DNA of 49,903 nt, taken from contig CAYIPG010000003.1 of NCBI GenBank assembly GCA_964365305.1, positions 1-49,903 of the forward strand. Reading direction: 5' to 3'. How positions within the stretch are numbered: position 1 is the first letter of the stretch; each line of letters begins with the position of its first letter. Under the pieces are notes generated by a model. The model ran no database searches, had not been told where the DNA came from, and saw only the letters and a program-made list of their open reading frames with translations. Source of the stretch: an uncultured Candidatus Saccharibacteria bacterium (GTDB lineage: Bacteria > Patescibacteriota > Minisyncoccia > JACQLN01). The position numbers and the translations under genes are program-made. Below are positions 28,139-49,903 of this stretch, in pieces.

Positions 28139-28614
28139 GTGATAGTTATTTTTCTTTGTGTGACTCCAACTGTTTCAAAGTAAATTTTTTTAGCATTTTT
28201 GGGCAGATATTTTTCTATTTTTTCCGGCCATTCGATTAAAATTATATTTTTTTTATCTTTCAAAATATCCCGAAGGCCCAAGGCCAATAAGTCCTTAGCT
28301 GATTTTAGGCGATAAGTATCTATATGAACCAAAAACTTTTTATTTGTGTGTTTATTCGTATCATTCGCATACATTCGTGGATTGGCATCGTATATCTCAA
28401 AGGTTTTCATTATTACAAAAGTTGGACTCAATATTTTTTCTTTGATTCCCAAGGCCTTGGCAAAAAATTGAACAAAAGTTGTTTTACCCGCGCCTAAATC
28501 ACCGTATAACGCAATCACCGAAGGACCGCCCTTCGCTGATATTTCCTTGACTAGTTTTTTGGACAGTTTTTGGGTGTCTTTAAGATTTTTAGCCACAAAT
28601 TCCATTGCCATCAT
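28135..28614 (-). CDS. tsaE: tRNA t6A biosynthesis ATPase TsaE, with in-frame repeat insert
   Basis: GDLGAGKTTF, SPTF, HIDTYRL, IEWP. Confidence 0.95.
   Translation of the reverse strand: MMAMEFVAKNLKDTQKLSKKLVKEISAKGGPSVIALYGDLGAGKTTFVQFFAKALGIKEKILSPTFVIMKTFEIYDANPRMYANDTNKHTNKKFLVHIDTYRLKSAKDLLALGLRDILKDKKNIILIEWPEKIEKYLPKNAKKIYFETVGVTQRKITIT
28353..28392. repeat. GxxExxY-type repeat, single arm, in frame within tsaE
   Basis: TATTCGTATCATTCGCATACATTCGTGGATTGGCATCGTA, encoding YDANPRMYANDTN on the minus strand. Confidence 0.85.
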
Positions 28615-28695
28615 AGTAGCAATTCTATCTGACTAAAAAAAGGAGCGTTCGTTTGAACGCTCCTTTCGCAATCTGAAGGACTGGCCTTCAGGAAT

Positions 28696-29328
28696 TTATT
28701 TTCTGGTGGCGGCGCGGATTGTCCGGCGCAGTAGGTCGTTGATGTTAAGTCGGACGGTGAAATTGTTGCCATTCCCATACTGGTTTGGGTAAATCTGCGG
28801 CAAGTAAGCCACATAGTTCACATACCGCCAGGAATGCTGGCCGGTATAGGTGTAGTAGTTATACTTATACCCCAACGGTGATCGCGGCAAAATCAGATAG
28901 GTGGTGTTGATGTCCAACACCACCCCATCAAAGCCCTCCGAAATCACCAAGACAGTGTAGTCGTTCCCGGGCAAGAAGAAACCCGCCAGTTTCTCGCCCG
29001 CCGGCGCGCCGTATTGTTCTAGCGCCGGGCCGACTTGAAAGTAACCGATCGGGTCCACATTTAGTTTGGCCATGCCGTCATAGCCATAGACCAGCAACTG
29101 GTCACGACTGTAGTACCCTTGGAAAATCAAGCACTTCTGCCACACTCCCACTGTTCTGTTAACAAAAAGCGCCGTGGAGATATGGGTTTCGGGAACTTTC
29201 TTGAGCGGCTGGATCGGAAGATTCTCCAAATCCTTCTTCTCCTCTTTTGATGGAGGATTTAATCGGATCTGGTAAGCGCAGCCGGAAAGAATCACAGCTG
29301 CCATTAGCATCAGAAGCTTTCTAGCCAT
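28696..29328 (-). CDS. Hypothetical lipoprotein
   Basis: Lipobox ILSGC; AAGGAG RBS; upstream TTGACA promoter; downstream terminator ~28638-28666. Confidence 0.7.
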   Translation of the reverse strand: MARKLLMLMAAVILSGCAYQIRLNPPSKEEKKDLENLPIQPLKKVPETHISTALFVNRTVGVWQKCLIFQGYYSRDQLLVYGYDGMAKLNVDPIGYFQVGPALEQYGAPAGEKLAGFFLPGNDYTVLVISEGFDGVVLDINTTYLILPRSPLGYKYNYYTYTGQHSWRYVNYVAYLPQIYPNQYGNGNNFTVRLNINDLLRRTIRAATRK

Positions 29329-29471
29329 CTCAATCTCCTTGTCTTTCCAAGGCTTAGCCTTGGATGGATTAAGTTGCCAAAGAACTGGCCTTTTTATATC
29401 TCTTCTATAATATCAAATAAAATATATTTGTCAATAGGTGGGGAAAATGAGAAATATAATACAATAAAGTC

Positions 29472-31181
29472 ATGCCTACACTAGAAGAAACTCGTGAGGA
29501 AAAATTAGAAGATGTGCGCCGGCAAGAAGAAGAACAGCGCGCCGAGGCCTTGGCCGAAAAAACCGGTGCCCATTATATTAACTTGGCCAAGGTGCCGGTT
29601 CAACGCGATTCGCTTCATTTTATTCCCCAAGCCGAAGCCGAGCGCGCCGGTGTTATTGTAATTCAGCAATCCGGACAAGTATTAAAAGTGGGCGCGCTGG
29701 ATCCGGCCAATAAAGAAACTCTTCAAATTTTAGAACGGCTTAAAGCCCAGGGATTTAAAGTTGATGTTTTTTTAATTTCGCGCTCGTCTTTTAAAAAGGC
29801 GCTGGGCGAATTTAAATTTATTCCAACCCAAATCAAGGGCGCGGCCACATCGGGGCAGGTTTCATTAGAACAGATTGAATCGTTAAAAAAAGAAATCACC
29901 AGTTTCGCGGCCTTAAAAGAAAAGTTGGAAAAAATTTCCGCCGGCGAAACCAGTATTCTTTTGGAACTATTTTTAAGCAGCGCTCTAAATTTAGACGCTT
30001 CCGATATTCATGTGGAACCGCAACAAAACCAGGTGCAAATTCGTTTTCGTTTGGACGGCGTTCTGCAAGACGCTGGCGCAATTTCGGCTATAACTTATCA
30101 ATCCGCGCTGTCGCGCATAAAATTGCTCTCGGGTTTGCAATTAAATGTTCAAAACATTCCTCAAGACGGCCGGTTCACGATAAAACAAGGGGGCGAAATG
30201 GGAGAAAAGGGTAAAATGGGGCAGGTGGGTGAGAAGGGAGAAATGGGAATGGAGGTTGAGATTAGAACTTCGATTTTACCAGGCGCGTACGGCGAATATA
30301 TTGTTTTAAGAATTCTAAATCCCAACGCCATTAAACTAGAAACCAAGGACCTGGGCTTGCGTGATTACTTATGGCAACCCTTAGAAAAAGAAATTAAAAA
30401 AACCAGCGGCATAATTTTGGTGACTGGTCCCACGGGTTCGGGCAAAACCACCACGCTTTACGCTTTTTTAAAATATCTAAATAAGCCCGGCGTGAAAATA
30501 ATTACTTTGGAAGATCCCATAGAATATCATCTGCAGGGCGTGAATCAATCACAGATAGAACCGGAGAAGGGTTATACTTTTGCGCAAGGGTTAAGATCGG
30601 TTTTGCGGCAGGATCCCAATGTTATTTTAGTGGGCGAAATCCGAGACGAAGAAACCGCTGATGTGGCTTTGCACGCGGCTTTAACCGGCCACTTGGTTTT
30701 TTCCACTCTACATACCAACGATGCTGTGGGCGCTATTCCCCGATTTTTGGATTTGAACGCCAAGCCGCAAATTTTGGCCTCGGCACTAAATGCGGCCGTG
30801 GCCCAACGGCTGGTGCGAAAACTTTGTCAGACCTGCAAGAAAATAATATCGGACCCAACTTTGATTGAAAAAATTAAAAAAGATCTTATTGATGTAAAAG
30901 ATGAAATAAAATCTTGGCCAGCCGAAATTAAAATATATGAAGCGGCGGGTTGTGATAAGTGCGGCCATACCGGCTACAAGGGGCGAATTGGCGTCTTTGA
31001 AATGCTATTCGTGAACGAAGGTCTGGAAAAATTAATCGGCCAGAATCCCTCGCATCAACAAATTTTGGAAGAAGCCAAAAAACAGGGTTTTATAACCATG
31101 TATCAGGATGGCTTGATGAGAGTGCTGGCGGGAGAAACAACTCTGGACGAAGTTAGCCGAGTGACCAGCCAAGAAACTTAA
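29472..31181 (+). CDS. GspE/PilB family type IV pilus assembly ATPase
   Basis: ASDIHVEP, PQDGRF, GPTGSGKTT, EDPIEY, LRQDPN, TGHLVFSTLHTN, CxxC motifs. Confidence 0.95.
   Translation: MPTLEETREEKLEDVRRQEEEQRAEALAEKTGAHYINLAKVPVQRDSLHFIPQAEAERAGVIVIQQSGQVLKVGALDPANKETLQILERLKAQGFKVDVFLISRSSFKKALGEFKFIPTQIKGAATSGQVSLEQIESLKKEITSFAALKEKLEKISAGETSILLELFLSSALNLDASDIHVEPQQNQVQIRFRLDGVLQDAGAISAITYQSALSRIKLLSGLQLNVQNIPQDGRFTIKQGGEMGEKGKMGQVGEKGEMGMEVEIRTSILPGAYGEYIVLRILNPNAIKLETKDLGLRDYLWQPLEKEIKKTSGIILVTGPTGSGKTTTLYAFLKYLNKPGVKIITLEDPIEYHLQGVNQSQIEPEKGYTFAQGLRSVLRQDPNVILVGEIRDEETADVALHAALTGHLVFSTLHTNDAVGAIPRFLDLNAKPQILASALNAAVAQRLVRKLCQTCKKIISDPTLIEKIKKDLIDVKDEIKSWPAEIKIYEAAGCDKCGHTGYKGRIGVFEMLFVNEGLEKLIGQNPSHQQILEEAKKQGFITMYQDGLMRVLAGETTLDEVSRVTSQET
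30195..30248 (+). repeat. Six 9-bp tandem units inserted in frame in the PilB-like gene
   Basis: GAAATGGGA GAAAAGGGT AAAATGGGG CAGGTGGGT GAGAAGGGA GAAATGGGA. Confidence 0.8.
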
Positions 31182-31185
31182 TCTT

Positions 31186-32592: not shown

Positions 32593-32600
32593 AATAAAAG

Positions 32601-35287: not shown

Positions 35288-36496
35288 ATGTCTAAAGTAG
35301 ATATTGATTCCTCAAAAATAAACGACTTTCTGGAAAGAGGCGTAAAAGAAGTAACCGTCAAAGAGAGTGTGTTGCGCAAACTCTCTTCGGGCCGGGTGTT
35401 GCGTATTAAACACGGCGTGGACCCTTCCGGTCAAGACCTGCACTTGGGCCATGCTGCGGTCTACTTAAAACTCCGAGATCTGCAGGATATGGGGCATAAG
35501 ATTGTTTTTTTGATCGGCGGCTTTACCGGCCGCTTTGGCGATCCCACCGAAAAAATGACTTCCCGCGCCTTAAAATCAAAAGAAGAAGCCGAAGCCAACG
35601 CCCGCGACTATGTTAATCAGATTTCAAAAATATTAAATGTAAAAGAACTGGAACTGCGCACCAACAGCGAGTGGTACGATAAAATGTCGGCCGAGGACTT
35701 TATAAAACTACTGGCTTATTTTACAGTAGATCAGGTTTTGGCGCGCGATATGTTCCAAGAACGAAAAAATAAAAAACTGCCCATCCGTTTGCACGAAACG
35801 GTCTATCCTATTTTGCAGGGTTACGATTCAGTTATGCTGAAAAGCGATCTAACGGTGATAGGCACCGACCAGGTCTTTAACGAAAATTTCGGGCGGGAAC
35901 TTCAAAAAAAATATAATCAAGAACCTCAAGACATCGTGGCGATTGAGATTTTGGTGGGTTTGGATGGCGCCAAAAAAATGGGCAAGAGCTTAAACAACTA
36001 TATTTCCATAAGCTCCGGCGCTCGCGAACAATTCGGACAAATAATGTCTCTGCCCGACAGCGCCATTATTGATTATTTTACCCTGACCACTCGGGTTGAT
36101 TTGAAAGAAATAAAAGAAATAGCGGTGTCGCTTAAAAATGACACTGTGAATCCTCGGGACTTGAAACTTCGGCTAGCTCAAGAAATAGTGGGATTTTATC
36201 ATTCTCCCCCAGAAGCCGCGAAAGAAGCCGAGAATTTCATTAAGACCTTTTCAAAAAAAGCGTTGCCGGAAGAAATAACTGAAATAGTTGTTAATGCGAA
36301 AGAATTGAAGTTGTTGGATATGATTATGGAGTCGGGTTTGTCCGGTTCCAAAAGCGAAGCCCGCCGCTTGATAGAAGACGGCGCGGTTGATATTGATGGC
36401 GCAACCATAAATTATCCCGATAAAATTATAAACATCGGCGGCGGTGTTGTTATCAAAATAGGTAAACATCGTTTTGCCAAAATAAAGGCCAAATAA
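35288..36496 (+). CDS. tyrS: Tyrosine-tRNA ligase
   Basis: DLHLGH, YPILQGYDS, GTDQ, KMGKS, S4-like C-terminal domain. Confidence 0.95.
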   Translation: MSKVDIDSSKINDFLERGVKEVTVKESVLRKLSSGRVLRIKHGVDPSGQDLHLGHAAVYLKLRDLQDMGHKIVFLIGGFTGRFGDPTEKMTSRALKSKEEAEANARDYVNQISKILNVKELELRTNSEWYDKMSAEDFIKLLAYFTVDQVLARDMFQERKNKKLPIRLHETVYPILQGYDSVMLKSDLTVIGTDQVFNENFGRELQKKYNQEPQDIVAIEILVGLDGAKKMGKSLNNYISISSGAREQFGQIMSLPDSAIIDYFTLTTRVDLKEIKEIAVSLKNDTVNPRDLKLRLAQEIVGFYHSPPEAAKEAENFIKTFSKKALPEEITEIVVNAKELKLLDMIMESGLSGSKSEARRLIEDGAVDIDGATINYPDKIINIGGGVVIKIGKHRFAKIKAK

Positions 36497-36497
36497 C

Positions 36498-36529
36498 AAA
36501 ACCCCCCGACGGTGCCGTCGGGGGGTTTT
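36498..36529. terminator. Bidirectional intrinsic terminator
   Basis: AAAACCCCCCGACGG-TG-CCGTCGGGGGGTTTT between convergent genes. Confidence 0.85.
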
Positions 36530-36535
36530 GATTTT

Positions 36536-36700
36536 TTATTCTAAATCCTCGTCGTCGTCACTATCGTCATCGCAATCTTCATCTTCATCCTCCCCATCTT
36601 CTTCCTCTTCTTCCACATCCTTCTCTTTCTCCACATCATCACCATCTGAATAAATATCATCACTTATAATACCGTCTGTGTTTTTGCGCTTATTTAACAT
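36536..36700 (-). CDS. Small, highly acidic protein (54 aa)
   Basis: MLNKRKNTDGIISDDIYSDGDDVEKEKDVEEEEEDGEDEDEDCDDDSDDDEDLE; TTGACC-17-TATTCT promoter at 36759-36731. Confidence 0.65.
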   Translation of the reverse strand: MLNKRKNTDGIISDDIYSDGDDVEKEKDVEEEEEDGEDEDEDCDDDSDDDEDLE

Positions 36701-36780: not shown

Positions 36781-37260
36781 TTAAGATTGAAAATCGGCGG
36801 TATGGGCGCAACAAATAGCTATAGCCAGGGCGTCGGCAGCATCATTGGGTTGGGGATCTTTTTTTAAGCCCAAAATCAAACGCACCATCTTTTGAACTTG
36901 TTTTTTCTCGGCCCGGCCGTAACCGGAAACCGCCTGTTTAACCTGCAAAGGCGTAAATTCTTTTATTTTTAATTTATTTTGGGCGGCCGCCAGAATTATC
37001 ACTCCACGGGCTTCGCTAACTTGAATTACGGTTTTATTGTTCTTAAAAAAGAAAAGTTTTTCAACAGCCGCAATATCAACCGACCATTTTTTAATAAGAG
37101 CGTCTATTTTTTGATAGAGTTGGGCTAAATGAGAATAACCTTCCTTATCTGATACCAAATTAATACAACCATAATCAAGAAAGATTGTTTCTTTATTTTC
37201 AATTCGTAATAACCCATAACCGATCATATTTGTTCCAGGGTCAATACCTAAAATAGTCAT
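36781..37260 (-). CDS. ruvC: Crossover junction endodeoxyribonuclease RuvC
   Basis: ILGIDPG, AVEKLFF, QVKQAVSGYGRAEK, DAADALAIA. Confidence 0.96.
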   Translation of the reverse strand: MTILGIDPGTNMIGYGLLRIENKETIFLDYGCINLVSDKEGYSHLAQLYQKIDALIKKWSVDIAAVEKLFFFKNNKTVIQVSEARGVIILAAAQNKLKIKEFTPLQVKQAVSGYGRAEKKQVQKMVRLILGLKKDPQPNDAADALAIAICCAHTADFQS

Positions 37261-37261
37261 A

Positions 37262-37810
37262 TTATTCGCTATTAGTAAAAACCTCCGAGACATCTTCGTC
37301 TTCATCTAATTCTTCCATTAAGACCTCCAGTTTCTTTTCATCGTCGGGGCTAAGTTTTATCGTTTGTTTGGACAACCATTTTAATTCGCCGTTCTCTATT
37401 TTTCTTTCAAACATCCACCTCACACCGCCACTGCCCGATAAACCAGCCCCATTTTTAGACAAAATATGCTTTATTTCAGCCACTGTTCTGTTTTTGTTGG
37501 AAGTTATCGCCTCTATCATAATCGCCACACCACCCGGGCCATAGGCCTCATAAACAACTTCTTCTAAATTACTGCCTTCTTTATCCAACCCACCTCCTTT
37601 TTTAATAGCCCGCTCTATATTTATAGCCGGCATATTCACCGCCTTAGCGCTATCAATAACGGTCTTTAAAGATATGTTTATCTTAATATCTGTGCCTTTT
37701 TTAGCCGCTACTTCTATAAGTTTAGCCAACTTAGAAAAAACTCGGCCCTTTTTAGCGTCGGTTATTTCTTTCTTTCTTTTTATTTGAGACCACTTGCTAT
37801 GACCAGACAT
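37262..37810 (-). CDS. yebC: YebC/PmpR family protein (short form)
   Basis: MSGHSKWSQIKRKK, YEAYGPGG, NKNRT. Confidence 0.93.
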   Translation of the reverse strand: MSGHSKWSQIKRKKEITDAKKGRVFSKLAKLIEVAAKKGTDIKINISLKTVIDSAKAVNMPAINIERAIKKGGGLDKEGSNLEEVVYEAYGPGGVAIMIEAITSNKNRTVAEIKHILSKNGAGLSGSGGVRWMFERKIENGELKWLSKQTIKLSPDDEKKLEVLMEELDEDEDVSEVFTNSE

Positions 37811-37814
37811 AATG

Positions 37815-37921
37815 CGATGCTAATCTACGAATGACATGCGAATTATACTAATAGATACACAAATGCATTTTTATTCTTATAATTATTCGTGTCATTCGCA
37901 TAAATTTGTATATTGGCATCG
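37815..37921. repeat. GxxExxY-type inverted-repeat element between dnaN and yebC
   Basis: CGATGCTAATCTACGAATGACATGCGAATTATACTAATA...TATTCGTGTCATTCGCATAAATTTGTATATTGGCATCG. Confidence 0.9.
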
Positions 37922-40944: not shown

Positions 40945-41038
40945 ACGATGCTAATCAACGAATGACATGCGAATCTACAAATAAGATATTCGAATCTTTT
41001 ATTAGTATCATTCGCATAAATTAGTATATTGGCATCGT
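40945..41038. repeat. GxxExxY-type inverted-repeat element upstream of rpmH
   Basis: ACGATGCTAATCAACGAATGACATGCGAATC...TAGTATCATTCGCATAAATTAGTATATTGGCATCGT. Confidence 0.9.
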
Positions 41039-42433: not shown

Positions 42434-42922
42434 TTGGATATGGATAAAGAAAAGGTTATACGAGATTTAATAACTCGATTCTTGGAACTTATCGGCGCTG
42501 ATGTTATTGGTCTGGAAATCAAGCAAGACTTGGAAAATACTAAGGTTAGCGCTACTGTGGGCGAGGCCGGTTTTTTGATCGGCCACGATGGCGAAAATTT
42601 ACGAGCCATTCAGTATATTTTAGCGCTGATGGTGGCGAGGCAGACCCAAGAAATTTTTAAACCCAGCGCTTTTACCATAGATATAAATAATTATCGCCAG
42701 GAAAAAGAAAATTATTTAACGGCTCTGGCCAAAAATTCGGCGGCCGAGGTTTTAGAAACAAAAAAATCGGTGGAACTGGAACCCATGCCGGCCTATGAGC
42801 GAAGAATCGTTCATATAACTCTGGAAAAGATAGAAGGAATTAAAAGCGAGAGTGTGGGCGAAGGAGAAGAAAGGAGGATTGTTATCAAACCAGAGCATAA
42901 TGCGATGCCAATCAGCGAATGA
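42434..42922 (+). CDS. Jag/KhpB-like KH-R3H RNA-binding protein
   Basis: LIGHDGENLRAIQ KH, PMPAYERRIVH R3H; C-terminus extended by the repeat element. Confidence 0.9.
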   Translation: MDMDKEKVIRDLITRFLELIGADVIGLEIKQDLENTKVSATVGEAGFLIGHDGENLRAIQYILALMVARQTQEIFKPSAFTIDINNYRQEKENYLTALAKNSAAEVLETKKSVELEPMPAYERRIVHITLEKIEGIKSESVGEGEERRIVIKPEHNAMPISE

Positions 42923-42998
42923 CATGCGAATTATACAAATATATTTACGAGTTCGTTTTCTATTCGTATCATTCGCATAAATTAGTATATTAACATCG
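42903..42998. repeat. GxxExxY-type inverted-repeat element after jag
   Basis: CGATGCCAATCAGCGAATGACATGCGAATTATACAAAT...TATTCGTATCATTCGCATAAATTAGTATATTAACATCG. Confidence 0.9.
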
Positions 42999-43000
42999 TG

Positions 43001-44110
43001 TTAGAGCGTTAAGCGATACAGTCGGCCGTCTATTTTATTTATAAAGAAAAGATAGGCCTCGTTGGCCGAGAGCAACAAGTCGGTAGCGTCGGTTGGAATT
43101 TTAATAATATCTTTTTGCTCGCCGGTTTCAATATTTATTTTAACAATTGTTTCAGCGCCGGGCCTTAATTTGCCTTTATAGTAATCATCAGGCATCATAA
43201 ATTCGTTGTCGGTTTCAAAGCGGGAGCAGAATAAAGAACGGTTGTCTTGCACCCAAAGGCATTTTTCGGGCAACGAGAACAAGTCCATCCTTTTTTCCGT
43301 TTTTTTAATTAGATCTAAGACCTTTATTTCTAGGTTAAGGCCATTTTCGTCGGTCTTAGAAACCAAAACCTTGTCGCCCACCGGTGAGAACAACGCCGTT
43401 AAACCATAGGTATTGCCGATAATGCGGTTGATTTTTTTGGTCTTTATATCAACCAAATACAACAAACCGTAGGCCAAACCCGAGGGTCGGGTTGTTAGCG
43501 CGATGGTGTTACTGGTGGGCCAAACCAGCATCAAATCGGGAATTTTAATTGAAGCAATTGTGGTGGTTTTGGCTTGATCATCAACCACAACCAATTGCCG
43601 CAGGCCTTTATCTAACAACGCCATAGCTATTTTGGAGCCGCGGGGTTCAAAGGCCGAGGCCTCCATGTTTTGTGGCAAGGCCTTAATGGTTTTGTTTTCT
43701 AAATCAAAAATTAAATAGCGGTTTTGGCCCGAGGGCAGGGTCTGGCGCAATGATATTTTTTTACCATCGTCCGAGAACTCCACTCGGCTTATTTTTTCGC
43801 TGGCCACCGTGCCGAGTTTGGTTTTGCTTTGGCCGTCTTGGTCTATTTGGTTGATGGCGCCGTCCCAGGCCACATAGTTTATTTTACCGTCTGGATTCAA
43901 ACCAGCGCCCAAGACCGATTCTTCGGTTAAAGCTATCAGCCGTTCTTTGGTTTCGGGAACGAGCTCGGAAATTTCTGGAATTTCGCCCGGGCTGGGCGGA
44001 GGAGTTACGGGTCGTTTCTTAAAGAAAAGATTATAAATCACCAAAATAACAAAAACAATAACTAGAATTACAGCGGTTATGATCAATATTTTTTTTATTC
44101 GGTGGCTCAT
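43001..44110 (-). CDS. Membrane-anchored beta-propeller-like hypothetical protein
   Basis: N-terminal TM anchor, Pro linker, WD/TolB-like strands (FSDDGKK, FSPVGDK). Confidence 0.7.
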   Translation of the reverse strand: MSHRIKKILIITAVILVIVFVILVIYNLFFKKRPVTPPPSPGEIPEISELVPETKERLIALTEESVLGAGLNPDGKINYVAWDGAINQIDQDGQSKTKLGTVASEKISRVEFSDDGKKISLRQTLPSGQNRYLIFDLENKTIKALPQNMEASAFEPRGSKIAMALLDKGLRQLVVVDDQAKTTTIASIKIPDLMLVWPTSNTIALTTRPSGLAYGLLYLVDIKTKKINRIIGNTYGLTALFSPVGDKVLVSKTDENGLNLEIKVLDLIKKTEKRMDLFSLPEKCLWVQDNRSLFCSRFETDNEFMMPDDYYKGKLRPGAETIVKINIETGEQKDIIKIPTDATDLLLSANEAYLFFINKIDGRLYRLTL

Positions 44111-44800: not shown

Positions 44801-44838
44801 TATTAGTATCATTCGCATGAATTCGTAGATTAGCATCG
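44801..44838. repeat. GxxExxY-type repeat, single arm
   Basis: TATTAGTATCATTCGCATGAATTCGTAGATTAGCATCG. Confidence 0.85.
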
Positions 44839-44843
44839 CAAAT

Positions 44844-45602
44844 TTATCTTATATACAAAGTAATTCTACCCTCGGCTCTTTGATTGATATCGTTCCTTAA
44901 TTTTTTATGAGTGGCCAGTAGTTTTAAGTTGGTCTGCGTGCCCAAACGGGTTCGTGGTGTTATATTTATCGGCAAAACCATCGGGTCGGCGCTGGTGTTT
45001 TCTTGCGGTTGACCGTCTAAAAACCATTTCAAATCCAAATCATTTTCATTCAAAGCGTTGAAACTAAATATCTTAGCCATTAAAGCGCTGTCCTGGCCGG
45101 GCGGCGTGTCCCACAGAGTAGGCGCGGGATTATTGTAATTATCATTATTTTTTAGATAAAAATCTATTTCCGGCCGAACCGTATTTATTTTTAGAGCCGC
45201 CGAGGCGCTTTTGCCGGTGGCTTCATCGGTGGCGGTGACTCGCAGTTCGTGGGTGAATTCCGGAATTTGATAAGTTATTAGCAAAAACGAATCTTTGCCT
45301 TTACCGGTCTGATCCGGCCCTTCGCGGTTGCTGGAAGCGTCGTCCACTATCCAGGTGTAAGTTAAATTTTGGGGATTAGGCACATTAGCCAAGGCGTAAA
45401 TTGTCACCCCCGAGAGTGTGCTGGGCAAGGCCTTGCCTGGATAATCATAGGGCGTTAGGGTATTGGCTTTCCATACTAAATCCAACTGAAAATCACCGCC
45501 GGCTGATATGGTTGTACTTTGCGCCAGAGACGCGCACGGCGCCGCCAGCAAGGCGACGGAAATAGCGAGAGGTATAAATATTTTTCTTGTTATAATTCTC
45601 AT
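44844..45602 (-). CDS. Secreted Ig/PKD-like hypothetical protein
   Basis: Signal peptide; two beta-rich domains (LTYTWIVD, LKWFLDG). Confidence 0.65.
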   Translation of the reverse strand: MRIITRKIFIPLAISVALLAAPCASLAQSTTISAGGDFQLDLVWKANTLTPYDYPGKALPSTLSGVTIYALANVPNPQNLTYTWIVDDASSNREGPDQTGKGKDSFLLITYQIPEFTHELRVTATDEATGKSASAALKINTVRPEIDFYLKNNDNYNNPAPTLWDTPPGQDSALMAKIFSFNALNENDLDLKWFLDGQPQENTSADPMVLPINITPRTRLGTQTNLKLLATHKKLRNDINQRAEGRITLYIR

Positions 45603-45630: not shown

Positions 45631-46050
45631 TTAGGCGATTTTGGGTTTGCCTTGGGCGAATGACTCTATAAAACTTAAAACCTTATCTACTTGTTCGTAC
45701 TCTTTTAAGTGGGCTCTGACCACAAAAATGGCGTTTTGGGGTATCAAGTTTATAAAAGGAATAAATTCTAATATCATGGTAAAAATATATTTTCTATAAA
45801 TCCATTTTTGCACATAACCTATTTTTTTCCTCATGTATAAAAACATAATCGGGGTTATTATAATGTTGGCAATTACTCCCAAAATAATTCCGCCATCCAA
45901 CCAATCAATTATATCTTTGGTCAGCGCCAACAGAAAAATTAAAAAAGGAAAATCAGGCGATTCCGGTTTTTCAATTCTGGCTTGTTCAACATCTTCTTCT
46001 TCTACACCCTCCAATTTTAAGTTTTCCAGTTCTTCATTATAGTTGGCCAT
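45631..46050 (-). CDS. Hypothetical membrane protein
   Basis: Hydrophobic segments, EFIPFINLIP; coupled to the VirB4 gene. Confidence 0.65.
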   Translation of the reverse strand: MANYNEELENLKLEGVEEEDVEQARIEKPESPDFPFLIFLLALTKDIIDWLDGGIILGVIANIIITPIMFLYMRKKIGYVQKWIYRKYIFTMILEFIPFINLIPQNAIFVVRAHLKEYEQVDKVLSFIESFAQGKPKIA

Positions 46051-47849
46051 TATTGCTGTTGCGCCAATTCTTTTTTAGCCGCTTCTATTTCTAACAACTG
46101 CGCCGGATCAGAAGTAATAACTTGATCTTCGGTGTATGACGCCACCACTTTTATGGCCGCTCGTTTTAAGCCGGCGATAAAAATACCCTCGCCCACATTG
46201 GACTCCAACAGCAAAAATTTTTCTTCATCGGTTAAATTAAATGTCTGCGTTACCACATCTATAGCCGCCGGCGACTGCTTTAGCAGAATTTGCATGGAGG
46301 AGTTGGTGACAATCGGTTTGCCGTATTGCGACTTCATAAAATCCTCCACATCTTGGGTAATAGTGGTTAAGCCCAAATAGTATTTACGGCACCTTTTGGC
46401 GATGCTGAACAAAAAAGCCGCCGCTTCGGGATGTTGCATCATCCACCAGGCCTCGTCCACCACCATTATTCGTTTTTTCTGTTGATAGCGGATTAAATTC
46501 CACACAAAATGCAGCAAAATATACATGGCAATGGGGCGGAGTTCCGGTTCCAGATCTCTTATGGAAAACACCACCAGGTTATTGTTTAGCGCCACATTGG
46601 TGGGCTGGTTTAAAAAGCCCGAAAAAGAACCTTTCACAAATTTTTCCAGCCGCACCGCCAGTTTTTCGGCGCCCTGCATGTTTTGCAGCACGGTGTAAAG
46701 ATCGCCCATCAATGGCGCGGGCTTGCCTCTCCAATCGGTGTTGATGGTGATGTCGCGCGAGGCGTAGGTTTCGGTAACGGCGCGATCCATGATGGCGTCT
46801 TCCTCGGGCGTTAACTGCCCCAGCATCACTTTTAACAAACCAGTTAGTTGAATGATATTGCTTTTTAACGATTCGGCCGGGCTTTCGTTTTTAGTCGGTT
46901 CGGTCAGATCAAAAGGATTAATATGGTGAGGCGAAGTTAGAGAAATGTTTATAAAAGTTCCGCCCACCACATCATTTAGATATTTATATTCGCTTTCAGG
47001 ATCAATAATAATCACATCCGTGCCCAACATTAGCGATCGCAACACTTCCAGTTTCACGGTGTAGCTTTTGCCCGAACCGGATTTAGCAAAAACCACCGAG
47101 TTGGCATTTTCCAAAGAAAAACGGTCAAATAAAATCAAACTATTATTATGGCGGTTGATGCCGTAGAGCACGCCTTTGTTGGATGTTAAATCGGCCGAAA
47201 CAAAAGGAAACATAGAAGAAATCGGGCCGGTGTTTAAGCTGGTGTAGACGCCCAATTTATCCAGGTTTATGGGCAGAGTGGTGGCAAAGCCCTTTTCTTG
47301 CTGAAAAACAGCCGTTTTGGTGTACACTAATTTAGATTCCATGAGCGTGGTGATTTGTTTTTCTATTTCATCCAGTTCTTGCAATGATTTGCCGTAGAAA
47401 GTTATATAGAGTCCGACTCTAAAAAATTTCTCGGTGCCTTGTTGGAGTTTATCCCGCAGTGATTCTAAATCCTGATAGGCCGTTTCCAGCATGGGATCAC
47501 GAATAAAGCCGCCTTCTTCTTTTTCGGAGATTTGGGCGCCGATTTGCGCCGTTTTCTTGCCAAGTTTTTTTAGCACCGGGCCGGTTTGGGTGGGCTGAAC
47601 CACCATGGCAATATCAAAAATCTTATCCATATTTATTATCGGAGAAAACCAGCTCACGCTTAAAAATCTGGGATAAGTGGCCACAAAAATAGTTCGGGCA
47701 AATTTTTCGCCTATTTGAAGATAAGTCGGATTTATTTGCATCGCCGAGGGCGCCAAAAGATCTTGTAATCCTTGACCCTCGGCTTTAATTTGCGCCGTTC
47801 CTGGTTTAGTTGGCGCCAACTTGGATTTTAGGTCTTGTAATATGCTCAT
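46050..47849 (-). CDS. VirB4-like ATPase
   Basis: FAKSGSGKS Walker A, IIDPESEY, INPFD, VVDEAW, RKY...TQD. Confidence 0.92.
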   Translation of the reverse strand: MSILQDLKSKLAPTKPGTAQIKAEGQGLQDLLAPSAMQINPTYLQIGEKFARTIFVATYPRFLSVSWFSPIINMDKIFDIAMVVQPTQTGPVLKKLGKKTAQIGAQISEKEEGGFIRDPMLETAYQDLESLRDKLQQGTEKFFRVGLYITFYGKSLQELDEIEKQITTLMESKLVYTKTAVFQQEKGFATTLPINLDKLGVYTSLNTGPISSMFPFVSADLTSNKGVLYGINRHNNSLILFDRFSLENANSVVFAKSGSGKSYTVKLEVLRSLMLGTDVIIIDPESEYKYLNDVVGGTFINISLTSPHHINPFDLTEPTKNESPAESLKSNIIQLTGLLKVMLGQLTPEEDAIMDRAVTETYASRDITINTDWRGKPAPLMGDLYTVLQNMQGAEKLAVRLEKFVKGSFSGFLNQPTNVALNNNLVVFSIRDLEPELRPIAMYILLHFVWNLIRYQQKKRIMVVDEAWWMMQHPEAAAFLFSIAKRCRKYYLGLTTITQDVEDFMKSQYGKPIVTNSSMQILLKQSPAAIDVVTQTFNLTDEEKFLLLESNVGEGIFIAGLKRAAIKVVASYTEDQVITSDPAQLLEIEAAKKELAQQQ

Positions 47850-47854
47850 AAATG

Positions 47855-47946
47855 CGATGCTAATCTACGAATTCATACGAATTATACTAATTTAATATTC
47901 GAATATCTTATTTGTTTCATTCGCATAAATTTGTATATTGGCGTCG
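47855..47946. repeat. GxxExxY-type inverted-repeat element
   Basis: CGATGCTAATCTACGAATTCATACGAATTATACTAAT...TTTCATTCGCATAAATTTGTATATTGGCGTCG. Confidence 0.9.
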
Positions 47947-47948
47947 TG

Positions 47949-48620
47949 TCATTCAACTTTTTTGGCTTCGTCTCCGGTGGCGATTAGTTGTTCCAGATTT
48001 TTTTGTTTTAATACCACTCCGGGGTTATAACTGGTGTAGAGCAGTTCTATCAGTTCTTCTCGTTCCAACAGAATGGTTTTAAGTCCCAGAGCGCCCAAAA
48101 GCGTCTGCACCTGGTTGACTCTTTGCAGTAATTGATTTTTTTTGGCTTCAAAATCCAAGTCCCGTTGGTTTGTTTGATCAGCCGATGATTTAGAAAAAAG
48201 TTTTCCAAAAAAACCACCGCCGCTTGTTAGATCTATCATAGCAACGCCCAACGGCACCACCACATAAAAATACTTGGACATGATGTTGGAAAGTTTAATC
48301 AGTTCTTCTATAAAGCCGGCGTATTCGCTGGTTTGTATTTTTAGGAGTTCGTTGGTTTGTTTTTCGGCTTGATCTTTCAGGAAAGATATATATTCGGAAA
48401 TATCCAATTGCCGCGATTGCATGACAATCTGCGCGGTATAATCCAGCGAATTTATAAAATCCTGAAAACGGTTTATAACGGCCTGCTGTTCGTCTTCCGA
48501 TTTTAAGGCGAAATTAATGGAAGACACCATTAAAACCATTCTTAAACTACCGCCTTTTAACACGGCGATATTTTCTTTGATGTCCTGAATATCTATTAAT
48601 TGATGGGTTGATCCTTCCAT
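47949..48620 (-). CDS. VirB4-associated conserved protein
   Basis: SINFALKSEDEQ, QIVMQSRQLDI, YFYVVVP; lies between prgI-like and virB4-like genes. Confidence 0.75.
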   Translation of the reverse strand: MEGSTHQLIDIQDIKENIAVLKGGSLRMVLMVSSINFALKSEDEQQAVINRFQDFINSLDYTAQIVMQSRQLDISEYISFLKDQAEKQTNELLKIQTSEYAGFIEELIKLSNIMSKYFYVVVPLGVAMIDLTSGGGFFGKLFSKSSADQTNQRDLDFEAKKNQLLQRVNQVQTLLGALGLKTILLEREELIELLYTSYNPGVVLKQKNLEQLIATGDEAKKVE

Positions 48621-48626
48621 ATAACA

Positions 48627-48718
48627 CGATGCTAATATACGAATTTGTACGAATGATACGAATAATTTATTCGAACTTTAATTAGTATCATTCGCATGTC
48701 ATTTGTTGATTGGCATCG
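48627..48718. repeat. GxxExxY-type inverted-repeat element
   Basis: CGATGCTAATATACGAATTTGTACGAATGATACGAAT...ATTAGTATCATTCGCATGTCATTTGTTGATTGGCATCG. Confidence 0.9.
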
Positions 48719-48721
48719 CAC

Positions 48722-49000
48722 TTACTTTTTCTTCCACAAATACAATTGCGGTCTCATGGCAAAGCCGATCATATTCACGATATATTTGGGCGCGGGTGTA
48801 TCTTTTATTTTTCCAAAAGCCAAAAACAGGGTTAGAGTTAATACCGGCACTGAAACCATTATAGCGAACGCTGTGGTTAAGAGCGAGAAAGAAATAAAAG
48901 CGATCACTCCGCCCGCGGCTACATAACCGAACTGTTTCAATGTTAACGGGCCGACTATTTTATCTTCGCTCTCTATGAATTGTGGAACTTGGAATTGCAT
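48722..49000 (-). CDS. PrgI family protein
   Basis: MQFQVPQFIESEDKIVGPLTLKQF plus 2 TM. Confidence 0.9.
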   Translation of the reverse strand: MQFQVPQFIESEDKIVGPLTLKQFGYVAAGGVIAFISFSLLTTAFAIMVSVPVLTLTLFLAFGKIKDTPAPKYIVNMIGFAMRPQLYLWKKK

Positions 49001-49002
49001 AG

Positions 49003-49197
49003 ACGATGCTAATTTACGAATTTATGCGAATAATACGAATGGGTTTCAAATATTTATTTCTGAAATTTACCAATAAACCAAGTTTCATATCCGTATCCTA
49101 AAAAGTATACCAGTTATTTTGTAGGAAAGTTCTTTGTGAATTATTTTATTCGTATCTTTATTTGTTTCATTCGTATTCATTTGTATATTAGCATCGT
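49003..49197 (-). mobile_element. Long copy of the inverted-repeat element containing an internally deleted GxxExxY nuclease gene (49180-49014)
   Basis: Minus strand reads MNTNETNKDTNKIIHKELSYKITGILF, then in another frame TDMKLGLLVNFRNKYLKPIRIIRINS*; these match the N- and C-termini of GxxExxY proteins; start and stop codons lie inside the IR arms. Confidence 0.75.
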
Positions 49198-49205
49198 GTT
49201 TATGT

Positions 49206-49903
49206 TTATGCGCTAAAAAATCCATTATAACCATTTTTTTTCTTGGTATTTCTTAAATCAACCACATTTTTATTGGGAATATGCCAATTGGCCGGACGAG
49301 CGGGGGGCGGGCTTTGATTCTGGGGCGGCGATATTGGCCGGGGCGCTTGATACGAATCGTTTCTAGGGCGATTGTTTTCCTGGGCTTTCAATTTCTCCAG
49401 CAATTCCCTTCTCTTTCTTTCAGCATCATTGTTTTGAGTATTGGAAATTGCCGGCCCACCGTAATCTTGATGAAGGCGGGGGGTTTGATTGGTGTTTGGT
49501 ACTTGGTAATTTGTATTTTGTTTTGCGGCATTTTGATTCGCATTTATATTCGTATCATTCGCGCTCATTCGTTGATTGGCATCGTGTTTAAGTCCGTGCA
49601 CCTGCATCAAACTTTCTTTGACCGGCTGAAAAATCGCTTGGTTAATATCTTGAGCAATCATTTGCGCCGTTTGCAAATCAATCTTTAGTTCATTTCGCAA
49701 AGACAAAATAAAATTATTTATTGGTAACTCGCCCAGAAATATCAACCCGATTATTCGGGCGGTTGCGCTGATACTGGCTTCTGGTAGATGATATTCCTCT
49801 TTGATCAAATTCCAAATACTTCCGGCGGTCTCTTCAGCCAACATGGACTCTTGCAAGTCCGCCGGCAGTTGATAGAAAACGGTAAATCTCCGCCGCACCA
49901 GCG
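49206..49903 (-). CDS. Hypothetical protein (5' end beyond the window) with a repeat-derived low-complexity linker
   Basis: Helical domain (IAQDINQAIFQPVKESL), then HDANQRMSANDTN and other repeat-encoded peptides; NVVDLR tail. Confidence 0.7.
   Translation of the reverse strand, partial: LVRRRFTVFYQLPADLQESMLAEETAGSIWNLIKEEYHLPEASISATARIIGLIFLGELPINNFILSLRNELKIDLQTAQMIAQDINQAIFQPVKESLMQVHGLKHDANQRMSANDTNINANQNAAKQNTNYQVPNTNQTPRLHQDYGGPAISNTQNNDAERKRRELLEKLKAQENNRPRNDSYQAPRPISPPQNQSPPPARPANWHIPNKNVVDLRNTKKKNGYNGFFSA
49547..49586. repeat. GxxExxY-type repeat, single arm, in frame in the CDS
   Basis: TATTCGTATCATTCGCGCTCATTCGTTGATTGGCATCGTG, encoding HDANQRMSANDTN. Confidence 0.85.

What the first reader, a model, noticed from the sequence alone, without database searches (positions are those of the whole stretch)
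28353..49586. Dispersed inverted-repeat family that appears to derive from the ends of a GxxExxY nuclease gene: candidate nuclease-driven mobile repeat system
Seen in sequence: nine related copies of a ~38-40-bp arm, consensus CGATGCYAATMTACGAATnnn(n)TGCGAATnATACKAAT, which contains four RCKAAT submotifs. Six are two-armed hairpin elements (37815-37921, 40945-41038, 42903-42998, 47855-47946, 48627-48718, 49003-49197). Three are single arms (28353, 44801, 49547). The two-armed copies sit within a few nt of start or stop codons and mostly fill the whole intergenic gap. The longest copy holds remnants of a GxxExxY gene. Established: GxxExxY proteins are small PD-(D/E)XK-fold proteins of unclear function. 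Inference: the intact unit is IR-GxxExxY-IR and the short copies are non-autonomous derivatives, analogous to REP/RAYT or MITE/transposase pairs but with a different enzyme. No target-site duplication is evident.
Basis: partly seen in the sequence, partly recalled or inferred. Interest (0 to 1): 0.9.

Follow-up and report, generated by a model that had tools for sequence, protein, structure and literature searches.

The report
Hairpin relics of a mobile nuclease cassette
The repeats are gene-less hairpin leftovers of a small selfish DNA cassette that carries a GxxExxY nuclease gene between inverted arms and that, in related tiny-genome bacteria, sits exactly between genes or even in frame inside essential genes such as lepA and recG.

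Summary
The window holds 15 arms: 6 two-armed elements and 3 single arms. The whole 663-kb genome holds 73 arms: 31 hairpins and 11 single arms. The longest copy (49003-49197) contains the N- and C-terminal remnants of a GxxExxY (PF13366, PD-(D/E)XK) gene.

- At the orthologous orfX-prgI junction, one genome has an intact 128-aa GxxExxY gene between the same arms. Two, including this one, have deleted remnants. Two are empty (stop, 1 nt, ATG).
- In 70 of 78 further GxxExxY loci the gene is bracketed by inverted arms built of tandem short units.
- The unit type follows the protein clade.

Unexpectedly, 23 of 122 GxxExxY copies in the class are open, in-frame insertions in host genes: lepA at one site in 11 genomes and recG at one site in 6. 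The lepA inserts are more alike than their host LepA in 43 of 55 pairs, which suggests horizontal, homing-like spread.

The two arms of a hairpin show no compensatory changes, so they behave as protein-binding ends rather than RNA structure.

Still open: nuclease-driven mobility is untested, this assembly has no intact gene, and repeat number does not track gene presence. I found no published description.

The parts
28354..28391 (-). Single 5'-type arm lying in frame inside tsaE (28135-28614). It is translated as an 18-residue loop insert (DANPRMYANDTNKHTNKK).
   Evidence: nhmmer E 6.4e-12; in-frame translation. TsaE family match covers 159 aa against a 135-position profile. The same loop carries a like peptide in G008 and G004 and is short in G010, G006, G001 and G005.
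37814..37921 (-). Two-armed hairpin element (108 nt) filling the gap between the dnaN stop (37924) and the yebC ATG (37810). It is 99% identical to a copy on contig C2 (9537-9645).
40945..41038 (-). Two-armed hairpin element in the dnaA-rpmH divergent spacer, ending 4 nt before the rpmH ATG (41043, + strand). By arm type it lies in the opposite polarity to rpmH.
42901..43000 (-). Two-armed hairpin element between convergent genes. Its 5' arm abuts the stop of the TolB-like gene (43001-44110, -). Its 3' arm overlaps the stop of jag/KhpB (42434-42922, +).
44802..44839 (-). Single arm filling the gap between the stop of orf 44844-45602 and the probable true start (ATG at 44791) of the T4SS pilin-like gene.
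   Evidence: Choice of the start codon is my inference.
47854..47947 (-). Two-armed hairpin element between the virB4 N-part ORF (47949-48620) and the virB4 C-part ORF (46050-47849). There are 99 nt between stop and ATG, with three stops in that frame. The N/C split itself is native to the family.
48625..48720 (+). Two-armed hairpin element between the prgI stop (48722) and the virB4 N-part ATG (48620). It is one of two clear cases in the genome whose arm polarity opposes the flanking genes.
   Evidence: The orthologous junction is empty (TAA, 1 nt, ATG) in G004, G001 and G008.
49003..49197 (-). Long copy: 5' arm, internally deleted and frame-shifted GxxExxY gene remnant (N-terminus 49094-49186, C-terminus 49041-49097), 3' arm. 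It lies between the orfX stop (49206) and the prgI ATG (49000).
   Evidence: The orthologous junction holds an intact 128-aa GxxExxY gene in G008 and a 140-nt remnant in G005, and is empty in G004 and G001.
49548..49585 (-). Single arm in frame inside orfX (49206-49898), read as DANQRMSANDTN in a low-complexity linker. G005 has a like peptide at the same place.

Best explanation
The window's repeats are the ORF-less, MITE-like descendants of a small selfish cassette, one of them still carrying a gene stump.

Build of the intact cassette: 5' arm, GxxExxY nuclease ORF (about 115-aa PD-(D/E)XK core, PF13366/TIGR04256), 3' arm. The arms are inverted. Each is a row of 4-5 tandem 8-10-nt units ending in YRAAT. 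The ORF starts inside the 5' arm and its stop codon lies inside the 3' arm, which explains the fixed differences between the two arms.

Placement: the cassette has no room for a promoter and lies co-oriented in host operons, exactly between a stop codon and the next ATG, so it rides on host transcripts. A sister clade instead sits as an open in-frame insert in surface loops of conserved proteins.

Shown here:
- the anatomy;
- derivation of the short copies from the gene cassette;
- empty, remnant and intact states at one orthologous site;
- many near-identical copies at different junctions;
- arm type following protein clade;
- catalytic residues (E, D, ExK) kept even in in-frame copies;
- a horizontal-transfer signature at the lepA site;
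- absence of compensatory pairing between arms.

Inferred:
- The nuclease binds the repeated arm units as a multi-site end-recognition signal and makes the DNA breaks.
- Host recombination or repair then copies the element: homing-type gene conversion at conserved sites for the in-frame clade, and an unknown integration step for the junction clade.
- The gene-less hairpins, which keep only the arms, are moved in trans.
- Survival only at stop/start junctions and permissive loops reflects purifying selection in a very compact genome.
For: Family size and context:
- 73 arms on 16 of 55 contigs, forming 31 hairpins of 90-109 nt (one of 195 nt) and 11 single arms.
- Arm-defined polarity agrees with gene direction in 25 cases, disagrees in 2 and is ambiguous in 4.
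- In the arm-defined orientation, 16 of 31 have both an upstream ORF (80 aa or more) stopping 0-4 nt before the 5' arm and a downstream ORF (80 aa or more) whose ATG lies 1-6 nt after the 3' arm.

Derivation from the gene:
- Gene stump in 49003-49197.
- In G008 the intact gene lies between the same arm family at the same junction, and the junction is empty (stop, 1 nt, ATG) in G004 and G001.

Generality:
- In 70 of 78 evaluable loci of 80 fetched, the flanking inverted-repeat score exceeds the maximum of 100 shuffles. The arms are nearly always rows of ...YRAAT units.

Amplification as short elements:
- 28 short copies fall into subfamilies that share the same centre. One cluster of 10 is at least 85% identical and one pair is 99% identical.
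- Five arm copies lie at contig ends.
- Element bins show 10-20 times the flank depth in four DNA runs.

Arms act as sequence, not as pairing:
- 711 identical positions between partner arms against 733 +/- 4.6 in 2000 permutations, all of which reached or exceeded the observed value.
- The sense strand folds no better than the antisense strand: it is the more stable in 7 of 28.

Enzyme:
- PF13366 E 3.3e-18.
- E40, D71, E81 and K83 are invariant in 21 sequences, including 6 in-frame copies.
- AF2 model pLDDT 92.6.

Co-variation:
- Clade A arms carry YGCRGA units (mean 5.8 against 0.65 CNAAT).
- Clade B arms carry CNAAT units (7.1 against 0.4).

Mobility between lineages:
- 23 of 122 copies in 301 genomes lie in open frames of 500 aa or more.
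- lepA is occupied at one site in 11 genomes and recG at one site in 6.
- lepA insert identity exceeds host LepA identity in 43 of 55 pairs (for example 82% against 48%), with Spearman -0.04.
- The lepA loop is empty in 24 of 37 readable genomes.
Against: - No intact GxxExxY gene is in this assembly (0 matches; only the stump), although it has the largest repeat load. Completeness is estimated at 97%, but repeats break the assembly.
- In the 11 genomes of the family, arm-pattern counts (G000 19, G002 7, G009 2, G003 1, G005 1, six genomes 0) do not follow presence of an intact gene. G008 has the gene and 0 hits.
- No target-site duplication.
- A PD-(D/E)XK nuclease alone is not known to join DNA, so the integration step has no precedent.
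- Cassettes of identical build carry an unrelated four-helix-bundle ORF (PF05635) at the same junction in G002, G009 and G007, and twice in this genome. ORF-less hairpins of several other families occupy the same junctions and the same lepA loop. Site recurrence could therefore reflect permissive sites rather than nuclease specificity.
- The strong polarity of ORF-less copies is not what random MITE insertion predicts.
- Foldseek gave no PDB hit at E of 0.001 or better.
- The arm-unit classes were defined after seeing the data and amount to roughly one evolutionary split.
Confidence: 0.65

Rival explanations
1. The hairpin (arm pair) is the mobile or selected unit. It is moved by some other, unidentified host or element function, as is assumed for rRNA intervening sequences. 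GxxExxY and 23S_rRNA_IVP ORFs are interchangeable passengers, for example addiction, defence or nucleic-acid-binding cargo, not the engine.
For: - Two unrelated small proteins occupy cassettes of the same build at the same junction.
- G009's J2 ORF-less hairpin shares arms with its J1 four-helix-bundle cassette.
- The largest hairpin burst (G000) has no intact nuclease gene in the assembly.
- Several ORF-less hairpin families fill the same junctions and the same lepA loop.
Against: - Arm unit type follows GxxExxY clade.
- Catalytic residues are invariant even in in-frame copies, which argues for selection on nuclease activity.
- The ORF is physically interlocked with both arms: its start lies in the 5' arm and its stop in the 3' arm.
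- No other candidate mobility gene was seen next to the cassettes in the loci read.
Confidence: 0.2
2. There is no trans-mobilisation. Each short copy is an independent full-length cassette insertion that later lost its ORF in place, so the hairpins are graveyards rather than MITE-like non-autonomous elements.
For: - In-place decay is directly seen at the orfX-prgI junction: intact in G008, 205-nt and 140-nt stumps in G000 and G005.
- In-place decay is also seen in the lepA loop: full cassettes, 59-79-aa hairpin remnants and a 5-codon footprint.
- Inherited polarity would explain the 25:2 co-orientation with genes.
Against: - Twenty-eight short copies share the same 5+5-unit architecture and fall into subfamilies with identical centres (for example ATTCGAAT), with a cluster of 10 at 85% identity or more and a pair at 99%. 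Independent deletions of a 400-nt gene would not converge like that.
- Only 1 of 31 two-armed copies keeps any gene remnant.
Confidence: 0.1
3. The hairpins are host-beneficial RNA elements kept for their fold, such as RNase III processing sites, mRNA stabilisers, terminators or devices that keep stop and start codons adjacent for translational coupling.
For: - Strict placement between stop and start codons and co-orientation with genes.
- Fold energies well below shuffles, z -2.7 to -7.2.
- Empty junctions are stop, 1 nt, ATG, so coupling matters in these operons.
Against: - No compensatory changes between arms; partner arms are less alike than random partners.
- The antisense strand folds better in 21 of 28.
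- No Rfam match on any element, and no U-tract.
- The same arms occur translated inside tsaE and orfX.
- Orthologous junctions work without the element in close relatives.
- Other genomes fill the same junctions with unrelated hairpin sequences.
Confidence: 0.04

Closest known systems
MITE / autonomous transposon pairs
   Same: Terminal inverted arms; short ORF-less multi-copy derivatives in subfamilies; a longer gene-bearing partner with the same arms; filled and empty sites among relatives.
   Different: No target-site duplication. The encoded protein is a 115-aa PD-(D/E)XK nuclease, not a DDE, HUH or Ser/Tyr enzyme. The arms are rows of tandem units and double as coding sequence for the ORF's ends. 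Orientation relative to host genes is strict. The partner gene was not found in this genome's own assembly.
REP / RAYT (REPIN) systems (recalled from general knowledge; no paper read here)
   Same: A single small gene flanked by inverted copies of the repeat that is dispersed through the genome as doublet hairpins between genes.
   Different: RAYTs are HUH Y1 transposase relatives, whereas this enzyme is PF13366. REPs are individually palindromic, whereas these arms are tandem direct units. RAYTs are usually single-copy, vertically kept genes. Here the gene is patchy (68 of 301 genomes) and shows horizontal spread.
Rickettsia palindromic elements (RPE)
   Same: Palindromic repeats inserted in frame in unrelated protein-coding genes and translated as part of the protein. 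For RPEs this comes from passages of the review PMC10969869. Here it is seen for arms in tsaE and orfX and for short hairpins in lepA of G003, G006, G028 and G023.
   Different: In the passages read, RPEs have no associated enzyme gene. Here the full-length form encodes a nuclease, and most copies in this genome lie at gene junctions rather than inside genes.
Homing endonuclease genes / inteins
   Same: This applies to the sister clade in relatives. Inserts are in frame at fixed sites in conserved regions of conserved proteins: LepA G domain, RecG between helicase motifs, and RadA-like and GatB-like proteins by motif. Distribution is sporadic. Inserts are more conserved than the host gene across families.
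   Different: No intein or Hint domain was found at E of 0.001 or better, so the nuclease apparently stays in the mature host protein. The insert is flanked by inverted repeat arms. The nuclease family (GxxExxY) did not appear as a homing enzyme in the literature searches run.
23S rRNA intervening sequences carrying a 23S_rRNA_IVP (PF05635) ORF
   Same: A hairpin-forming element whose stem is made by its ends, with or without a small ORF. PF05635 ORFs sit in cassettes of the same build at the same junction in G002, G009 and G007. PF05635 ORFs are reported inside rRNA insertions of CPR bacteria (passage of PMC11270868).
   Different: These copies lie between or inside protein genes, not in rRNA. 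This family's ORF is a nuclease. RNase III excision of IVSs is recalled knowledge and was not tested here.

Membership tests
GxxExxY / PDDEXK_3 (TIGR04256, PF13366) | Significant match to the family profile | tested here: inconclusive
   The window's stump gives no profile match: 0 matches at E of 0.001 or better in the own genome. It does match relatives' GxxExxY proteins by tblastn, with E 8e-7 for the N-terminus and E 0.003 for the C-terminus. The orthologous intact gene of G008 matches PF13366 at E 3.3e-18 and TIGR04256 over its cut-off.
GxxExxY / PDDEXK_3 (TIGR04256, PF13366) | Conserved E of GxxExxY plus the D...ExK catalytic core | tested here: not met
   This region is deleted in the window's copy, which keeps only about 30 N-terminal and about 19 C-terminal residues; it is a pseudogene. 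In relatives E40, D71, E81 and K83 are invariant in 21 of 21 sequences.
MITE | Terminal inverted repeats; small, ORF-less, multi-copy | tested here: met
   31 two-armed elements of 90-109 nt (one of 195 nt) with 38-nt arms, falling into subfamilies.
MITE | Target-site duplication | tested here: not met
   3-nt flanks identical in 0 of 30. 2-nt flanks identical in 10 of 30, but both sides are mostly CA.
MITE | Autonomous partner with the same ends | tested here: inconclusive
   Found in relative G008 and in 70 of 78 loci of the protein subclade. Not found in this genome's own assembly, where contigs break in the repeat.
MITE | Insertion polymorphism at orthologous sites | tested here: met
   Junctions J1-J3 of the T4SS cluster are empty, short-filled or gene-filled across 9 genomes.
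REP/RAYT | HUH (Y1) transposase-like gene flanked by the repeats | tested here: not met
   The flanked gene is PF13366, a PD-(D/E)XK nuclease.
REP/RAYT | Repeat unit is itself a short palindrome | tested here: not met
   Each arm is a row of tandem direct units; only the arm pair is inverted.
Intein / homing endonuclease element | In-frame insert at a fixed conserved site of a conserved protein, with patchy distribution | tested here: met
   Met for the sister clade in relatives: lepA in 11 genomes and recG in 6. 24 of 37 lepA loops are empty. Not met for the full cassette in this window, where only arm relics lie in frame.
Intein / homing endonuclease element | Protein-splicing (Hint) domain | tested here: not met
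   Pfam on G009 LepA and G139 RecG shows host domains plus PDDEXK_3 only, with no intein family at E of 0.001 or better.
Intein / homing endonuclease element | Enzyme cuts the empty allele at the insertion site | not testable with these tools
   Needs biochemistry.
23S rRNA intervening sequence | Located in 23S rRNA and excised from the transcript by RNase III | not tested
   All copies read here lie between or inside protein genes. The rRNA genes of this genome were not examined and no RNA data were available.
Rickettsia palindromic elements | Palindromic repeat translated in frame within host proteins | tested here: met
   Arms lie in frame in tsaE and orfX. Short hairpins lie in frame in lepA of four relatives. 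Sequence relatedness to RPEs was not tested.

The most novel reading that the evidence does not exclude
GxxExxY cassettes are a previously undescribed class of nuclease-driven mobile element with two lifestyles.

1. They insert precisely at stop/start junctions of operons and spawn gene-less hairpin progeny.

2. They home, intein-like, into fixed sites of conserved essential genes (lepA, recG and others) without any splicing. The active nuclease then persists as an extra domain inside the host protein, and its inverted arms are read as linker peptides.

Together with the like-built 23S_rRNA_IVP cassettes, they would form one superfamily of 'intervening-sequence' elements. That would explain where rRNA IVSs and many unexplained loop insertions in Patescibacteria proteins come from.
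Probability: 0.4. Interest if true: 0.9.

Novelty: new variant of a known kind. Interest (0 to 1): 0.8.

Why it matters
GxxExxY/PDDEXK_3 is a large family of unknown function. The one survey passage I read lists its function as 'Unknown' (PMC3424549).

This analysis gives the family a concrete, testable role: the gene of a selfish cassette with cognate inverted ends. It also gives defined substrates (the arm units) for biochemistry.

It would add an enzyme class to the short list of proteins that drive DNA mobility.

It would explain a substantial part of the 'intergenic' DNA and of odd protein insertions in ultra-small Patescibacteria genomes. These are relevant to gene calling, because arms are read as peptides and start codons get mis-set, and to MAG assembly, because contigs break in the repeats.

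It offers a natural example of a nuclease domain tolerated inside essential proteins such as LepA and RecG.

Tried and rejected
Ideas tested and dropped:
1. The hairpin at 47854-47947 split virB4. Rejected: all 9 relatives with the gene have the same separate ~222-aa N-part ORF, with or without a hairpin.
2. The element displaces a Shine-Dalgarno site. Rejected: this genome shows no SD signal at all. 32 of 475 ORF starts (6.7%) carry one against 7.9% at internal ATGs.
3. A three-frame stop in the 3' arm acts as a designed re-initiation device. Not pursued. The arm asymmetry is more simply explained because the GCT/GCC difference supplies the nuclease ORF's own stop codon.
4. Target-site duplication: none.
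5. RNA structure is conserved by covariation. Rejected.
6. Known RNA family: Rfam gave nothing on any element.
7. MAG chimerism as the cause of the uneven spread. No support: GC is 42.8% on contigs with arms against 41.7% without. The clustering stays unexplained (C1 has 0 loci against 4.4 expected, P 0.0125).

Tools that gave little:
- Sequence search of PDB: no relative.
- Foldseek against PDB: no hit at E of 0.001 or better. The best weak hits were tRNA-splicing endonuclease 3iey (2.9e-3), lambda exonuclease, Cas4 SSO0001 and Hjc. This is consistent with a generic PD-(D/E)XK fold only.
- Complex prediction on two copies of the nuclease core: no verdict (score 0.08).
- The look-up of sequencing runs: no RNA holder listed.
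- Read laying: contigs only. One contig in run X7 joins 47851 to 47958 with 34 other letters in place of the hairpin, at depth 5.7. At 88% likeness this may be another organism, so I do not count it.
- My gap-free inverted-repeat scan of the genome missed this family because of a 1-nt indel between the arms. It is not a census of other hairpin families.
- Paper supplements were not consulted. Those of PMC11270868 (its Table S4) may list ORF families in CPR rRNA insertions that bear on the IVS comparison.

Literature:
- Searches for GxxExxY, PDDEXK_3 and PF13366, for 'intervening sequence protein' plus 'inverted repeat', and for CPR plus in-frame, insertion and homing endonuclease found no description of these cassettes.
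- I read passages only of PMC8934634, PMC3424549, PMC10969869 and PMC11270868.
- The curated free-text descriptions of TIGR04256 and PF13366 were not available to me and might mention flanking repeats.
- Host-gene names other than those confirmed by Pfam or NCBIfam rest on motifs that I recognised: gatB, asnB-like, radA-like and glycosyltransferase.

Full report
**What is in the window**

The window is contig C3 of a 662,764-bp, 55-contig genome. Its estimated completeness is 97% and its GC content 42%. Genome-wide there are 73 arms on 16 contigs. They pair into 31 hairpin elements of 90-109 nt, the only longer one being the window's 195-nt copy, plus 11 single arms. Five arm copies lie at contig ends, so the repeat breaks the assembly.

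Genes flanking the window's copies:
- tsaE, dnaN, yebC and dnaA;
- rpmH;
- rnpA and yidC;
- jag/KhpB;
- a TolB-like protein;
- a T4SS pilin-like protein and PrgI;
- a VirB4-like ATPase in two ORFs.

**Anatomy**

The two arms are not equivalent. The arm that follows the upstream stop codon and the arm that precedes the downstream ATG differ at 8 fixed positions and by a 1-nt indel. With orientation defined by arm type, 25 elements are co-oriented with their flanking genes, 2 are opposed and 4 are ambiguous. In addition, 40945-41038 sits 4 nt upstream of the rpmH start in the opposite sense.

In the arm-defined orientation, 16 of 31 have both a long upstream ORF stopping 0-4 nt before the 5' arm and a long downstream ORF starting 1-6 nt after the 3' arm.

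There is no target-site duplication. The conserved ends are ...CA|CGATGC and GCATCG|CA....

The three single arms are not extragenic debris:
- 28354-28391 lies in frame inside tsaE.
- 49548-49585 lies in frame inside orfX. Both are read as DANxRMxANDTN.
- 44802-44839 fills the gap before the pilin-like gene.

**The long copy**

On the minus strand, 49003-49197 reads a typical GxxExxY N-terminus. After a frame shift and a large internal deletion it reads a typical C-terminus that runs into the 3' arm. tblastn with relatives' proteins gives E 8e-7 and E 0.003 for the two pieces.

These are the only GxxExxY traces in the whole assembly. The TIGR04256 profile finds nothing in the genome.

**Relatives: the intact unit**

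TIGR04256 matches 23 places in 15 of 41 related genomes. Reading 16 of these loci showed an intact ORF between inverted arms made of 3-6 tandem short units in nearly all. This was judged by eye; L004 shows units clearly only on its 3' side.

A scan of one genome per species with an alignment of the subclade closest to this window's stump found 489 relatives. The best 80, mostly records titled as Patescibacteria/Parcubacteria-type MAGs, were fetched. In 70 of the 78 with enough flank, the inverted-repeat score between the two flanks exceeds the maximum of 100 shuffles. The arms are almost always rows of ...YRAAT units, very like the window's.

The ORF begins inside the 5' arm and ends inside the 3' arm. 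In the window's arm family, the T that distinguishes GCTAAT (3' arm) from GCCAAT (5' arm) creates the TAG that would end the nuclease frame. The arm asymmetry is therefore inherited from the coding cassette.

**Orthologous sites**

The cluster orfX-J1-prgI-J2-virB4N-J3-virB4C was recovered from 9 genomes of the family. Empty junctions read stop, 1 nt, ATG.

| Junction | State | Genomes |
|---|---|---|
| J1 | empty | G004, G001 |
| J1 | intact 128-aa GxxExxY gene with this arm family | G008 |
| J1 | deleted stump, 205 nt | G000 |
| J1 | deleted stump, 140 nt | G005 |
| J1 | PF05635 (23S_rRNA_IVP) ORF between its own inverted arms | G002, G009, G007 |
| J2 | empty | G004, G001, G008 |
| J2 | hairpin of the window's family | G000 |
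| J2 | 53-nt remnant of that family | G005 |
| J2 | hairpins of other families | G002, G009, G007, G006 |

At J2, G009's hairpin shares arms with its own J1 cassette. J3 behaves likewise. The virB4 N/C split is native to the family and is not caused by the element.

**Are the short copies amplified as such?**

The 28 short copies compared share one 5+5-unit architecture. They fall into subfamilies with identical centres: a cluster of 10 at 85% identity or more, a pair at 99% on different contigs, and a median pairwise identity of 74%. Element bins have 10-20 times the depth of their flanks in contigs of four DNA runs from two studies.

This fits MITE-like amplification better than 30 independent deletions. 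In-place decay does also occur, as J1 and the lepA loop show. The strict polarity of ORF-less copies remains unexplained by a simple MITE model.

**Sequence or structure?**

Folded as RNA, the elements are more stable than shuffles (z -2.7 to -7.2). The sense strand is the more stable in only 7 of 28.

Partner arms show no compensatory change. In the 25 elements with complete arms (6 of 31 were dropped for gaps), 711 positions are identical, against 733 +/- 4.6 when partners are permuted, and all 2000 permutations reached or exceeded the observed value. Several positions are almost never the same in the two arms.

The arms are therefore conserved as oriented sequence, like protein-binding transposon ends, and not as a helix. 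Rfam has no match.

**The enzyme**

The G008 protein matches PF13366 (E 3.3e-18). In 21 aligned sequences E40, D71, E81, K83, Q95, Y99 and F113 are invariant, including in six in-frame copies.

The AF2 model is confident (pLDDT 92.6). It has no close solved relative. There is no Foldseek hit at E of 0.001 or better, and the best weak hits are other PD-(D/E)XK proteins: tRNA-splicing endonuclease, lambda exonuclease, Cas4 and Hjc.

**The in-frame lifestyle (outside the window)**

In 301 genomes of the class, 68 have GxxExxY matches at 122 places. At 23 of these the match lies in an open frame of 500 aa or more. Host genes of the 23:
- lepA at one site, between the GITIK...VRM strand and LNLIDTPGH, in 11 genomes of at least 10 taxonomic families;
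- recG between DEQHRFGV and SATPIPRTL in 6 genomes;
- single cases in a helicase after its P-loop, and in gatB-like, asnB-like, glycosyltransferase-like, membrane and P-loop proteins.

Three more in-frame cases come from the species scan (L102, L107, L119). Pfam confirms GTP_EFTU split by PDDEXK_3 in G009 LepA and DEAD-PDDEXK_3-Helicase_C in G139 RecG, with no intein domain. The arms are read through as linker peptides and the nuclease ORF lacks its stop.

In a tree of 47 cores, context is strongly clustered: 10 changes against 23.0 for shuffled labels, with 0 of 200 shuffles as low. Clade A has 23 rows (21 in-frame, 2 intergenic). Clade B has 24 rows (19 intergenic, 5 in-frame).

Arm units follow the clades. 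Clade A arms average 5.8 YGCRGA units against 0.65 CNAAT, and clade B arms average 7.1 CNAAT against 0.4 YGCRGA. The pattern fits 24 of 24 B rows and 20 of 23 A rows. The motif classes were chosen after seeing the data.

**Horizontal spread**

For the 11 lepA inserts, identity between inserts exceeds identity between the 300 LepA residues following the site in 43 of 55 pairs. An example is 82% against 48%. The two measures are uncorrelated (Spearman -0.04).

States of the lepA loop, with 37 of 41 genomes readable:

| Length between GITIK and DTPGH | Genomes | Reading |
|---|---|---|
| 26-30 aa | 24 | empty |
| 31 aa | 1 (G000) | probable footprint |
| 35-48 aa | 5 | intermediate |
| 59-79 aa | 4 | ORF-less in-frame hairpin relics of other families |
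| 173-209 aa | 3 | full cassettes |

This genome's lepA carries five extra codons whose DNA (CGTGAATCCGCGT) equals the last 3'-arm unit of G002's cassette. I read this as a probable footprint.

This invasion, decay and loss pattern, together with the insert-against-host contrast, is what homing elements show. However, occupation of the same loop by unrelated hairpin families means that permissiveness of the site also plays a part.

**Points against, and limits**

- The genome with the biggest burst has no intact gene in its assembly.
- In the 11 genomes of the family, arm-pattern counts (19, 7, 2, 1, 1 and six zeros) do not track gene presence.
- No enzyme activity is shown, and a lone PD-(D/E)XK nuclease offers no known joining chemistry.
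- PF05635 cassettes of the same build suggest either a second arm-binding protein or a shared, unidentified engine.
- The elements are clustered on some contigs: none on the 69-kb C1, where 4.4 loci are expected. There is no compositional sign of chimerism.

**Verdict**

The claim that the nuclease itself drives mobility is the best-supported mechanism but remains an inference. In five literature searches I found no description of these cassettes.

Noticed in passing
G000 contig C6, about 25,050-25,080 (loci L143/L144), outside the window: This genome's lepA has five extra codons (..PSRESAY..) at the exact loop where relatives carry a full GxxExxY cassette. The DNA CGTGAATCCGCGT equals the last 3'-arm unit of G002's cassette. 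Probably a footprint of a lost insert.
   Followed up: partly
G000 C18:7019-7336 and C11:16020-16241 (L044, L045); also L036, L040 and L041 at junction J1: 23S_rRNA_IVP / four-helix-bundle ORFs (PF05635, TIGR02436) lie between their own inverted arms built of other tandem units (TTTTCAAT; CCCATT; TAAATCCGAAAC). The build is the same as the GxxExxY cassette and in three relatives the junction is the same.
   Followed up: partly
whole genome G000: No Shine-Dalgarno signal: GGAG/GAGG/AGGA upstream of 6.7% of 475 long-ORF starts against 7.9% at internal ATGs. The upstream region is A/T-rich. Many gene pairs are spaced stop, 1 nt, ATG.
   Followed up: partly
window 46050-48620 and loci L035-L042: The VirB4-like ATPase is encoded as two consecutive ORFs (about 222 aa and about 500-600 aa) in all 9 relatives in which the N-part was found, with or without a hairpin between them.
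   Followed up: yes
window 36781-37810: yebC is short (182 aa, matching profile positions 1-137 of 245) and overlaps the start of ruvC (36781-37305) by 44 nt.
   Followed up: partly
G000 contigs C1 (69 kb), C4 (50 kb), C7 (30 kb) and window 1-28,000: The repeat family is absent from large stretches and clustered elsewhere (C2, C3, C6, C10, C28). GC is similar on both sets of contigs (42.8 against 41.7%). The cause is unexplained.
   Followed up: partly
G000 C6:17614-17680, C6:26719-26774, C39:986-1047: A second, small family of about 55-65-nt near-perfect palindromes centred on CGATCG (..TATATTACTAT..).
   Followed up: no
loci L174-L176, L178 (lepA of G006, G003, G023, G028): ORF-less hairpin elements of another family lie in frame in the lepA loop, read as ..TRNPKSEIxNKSQI.. 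/ ..LEFxxSxLEF... This is an RPE-like situation in four genomes of three taxonomic families.
   Followed up: partly
window 36491-36536: A G+C-rich 22-nt inverted repeat (91% complementary, 2-nt loop) followed by a T run, after the gene ending at 36496. It looks like an ordinary terminator and is unrelated to the repeat family.
   Followed up: no
window 40109-40189: A sub-threshold Rfam match to AsdA (antisense RNA of dnaA mRNA) inside dnaA: 35.7 bits against a gathering score of 52, E 4.9e-4.
   Followed up: no
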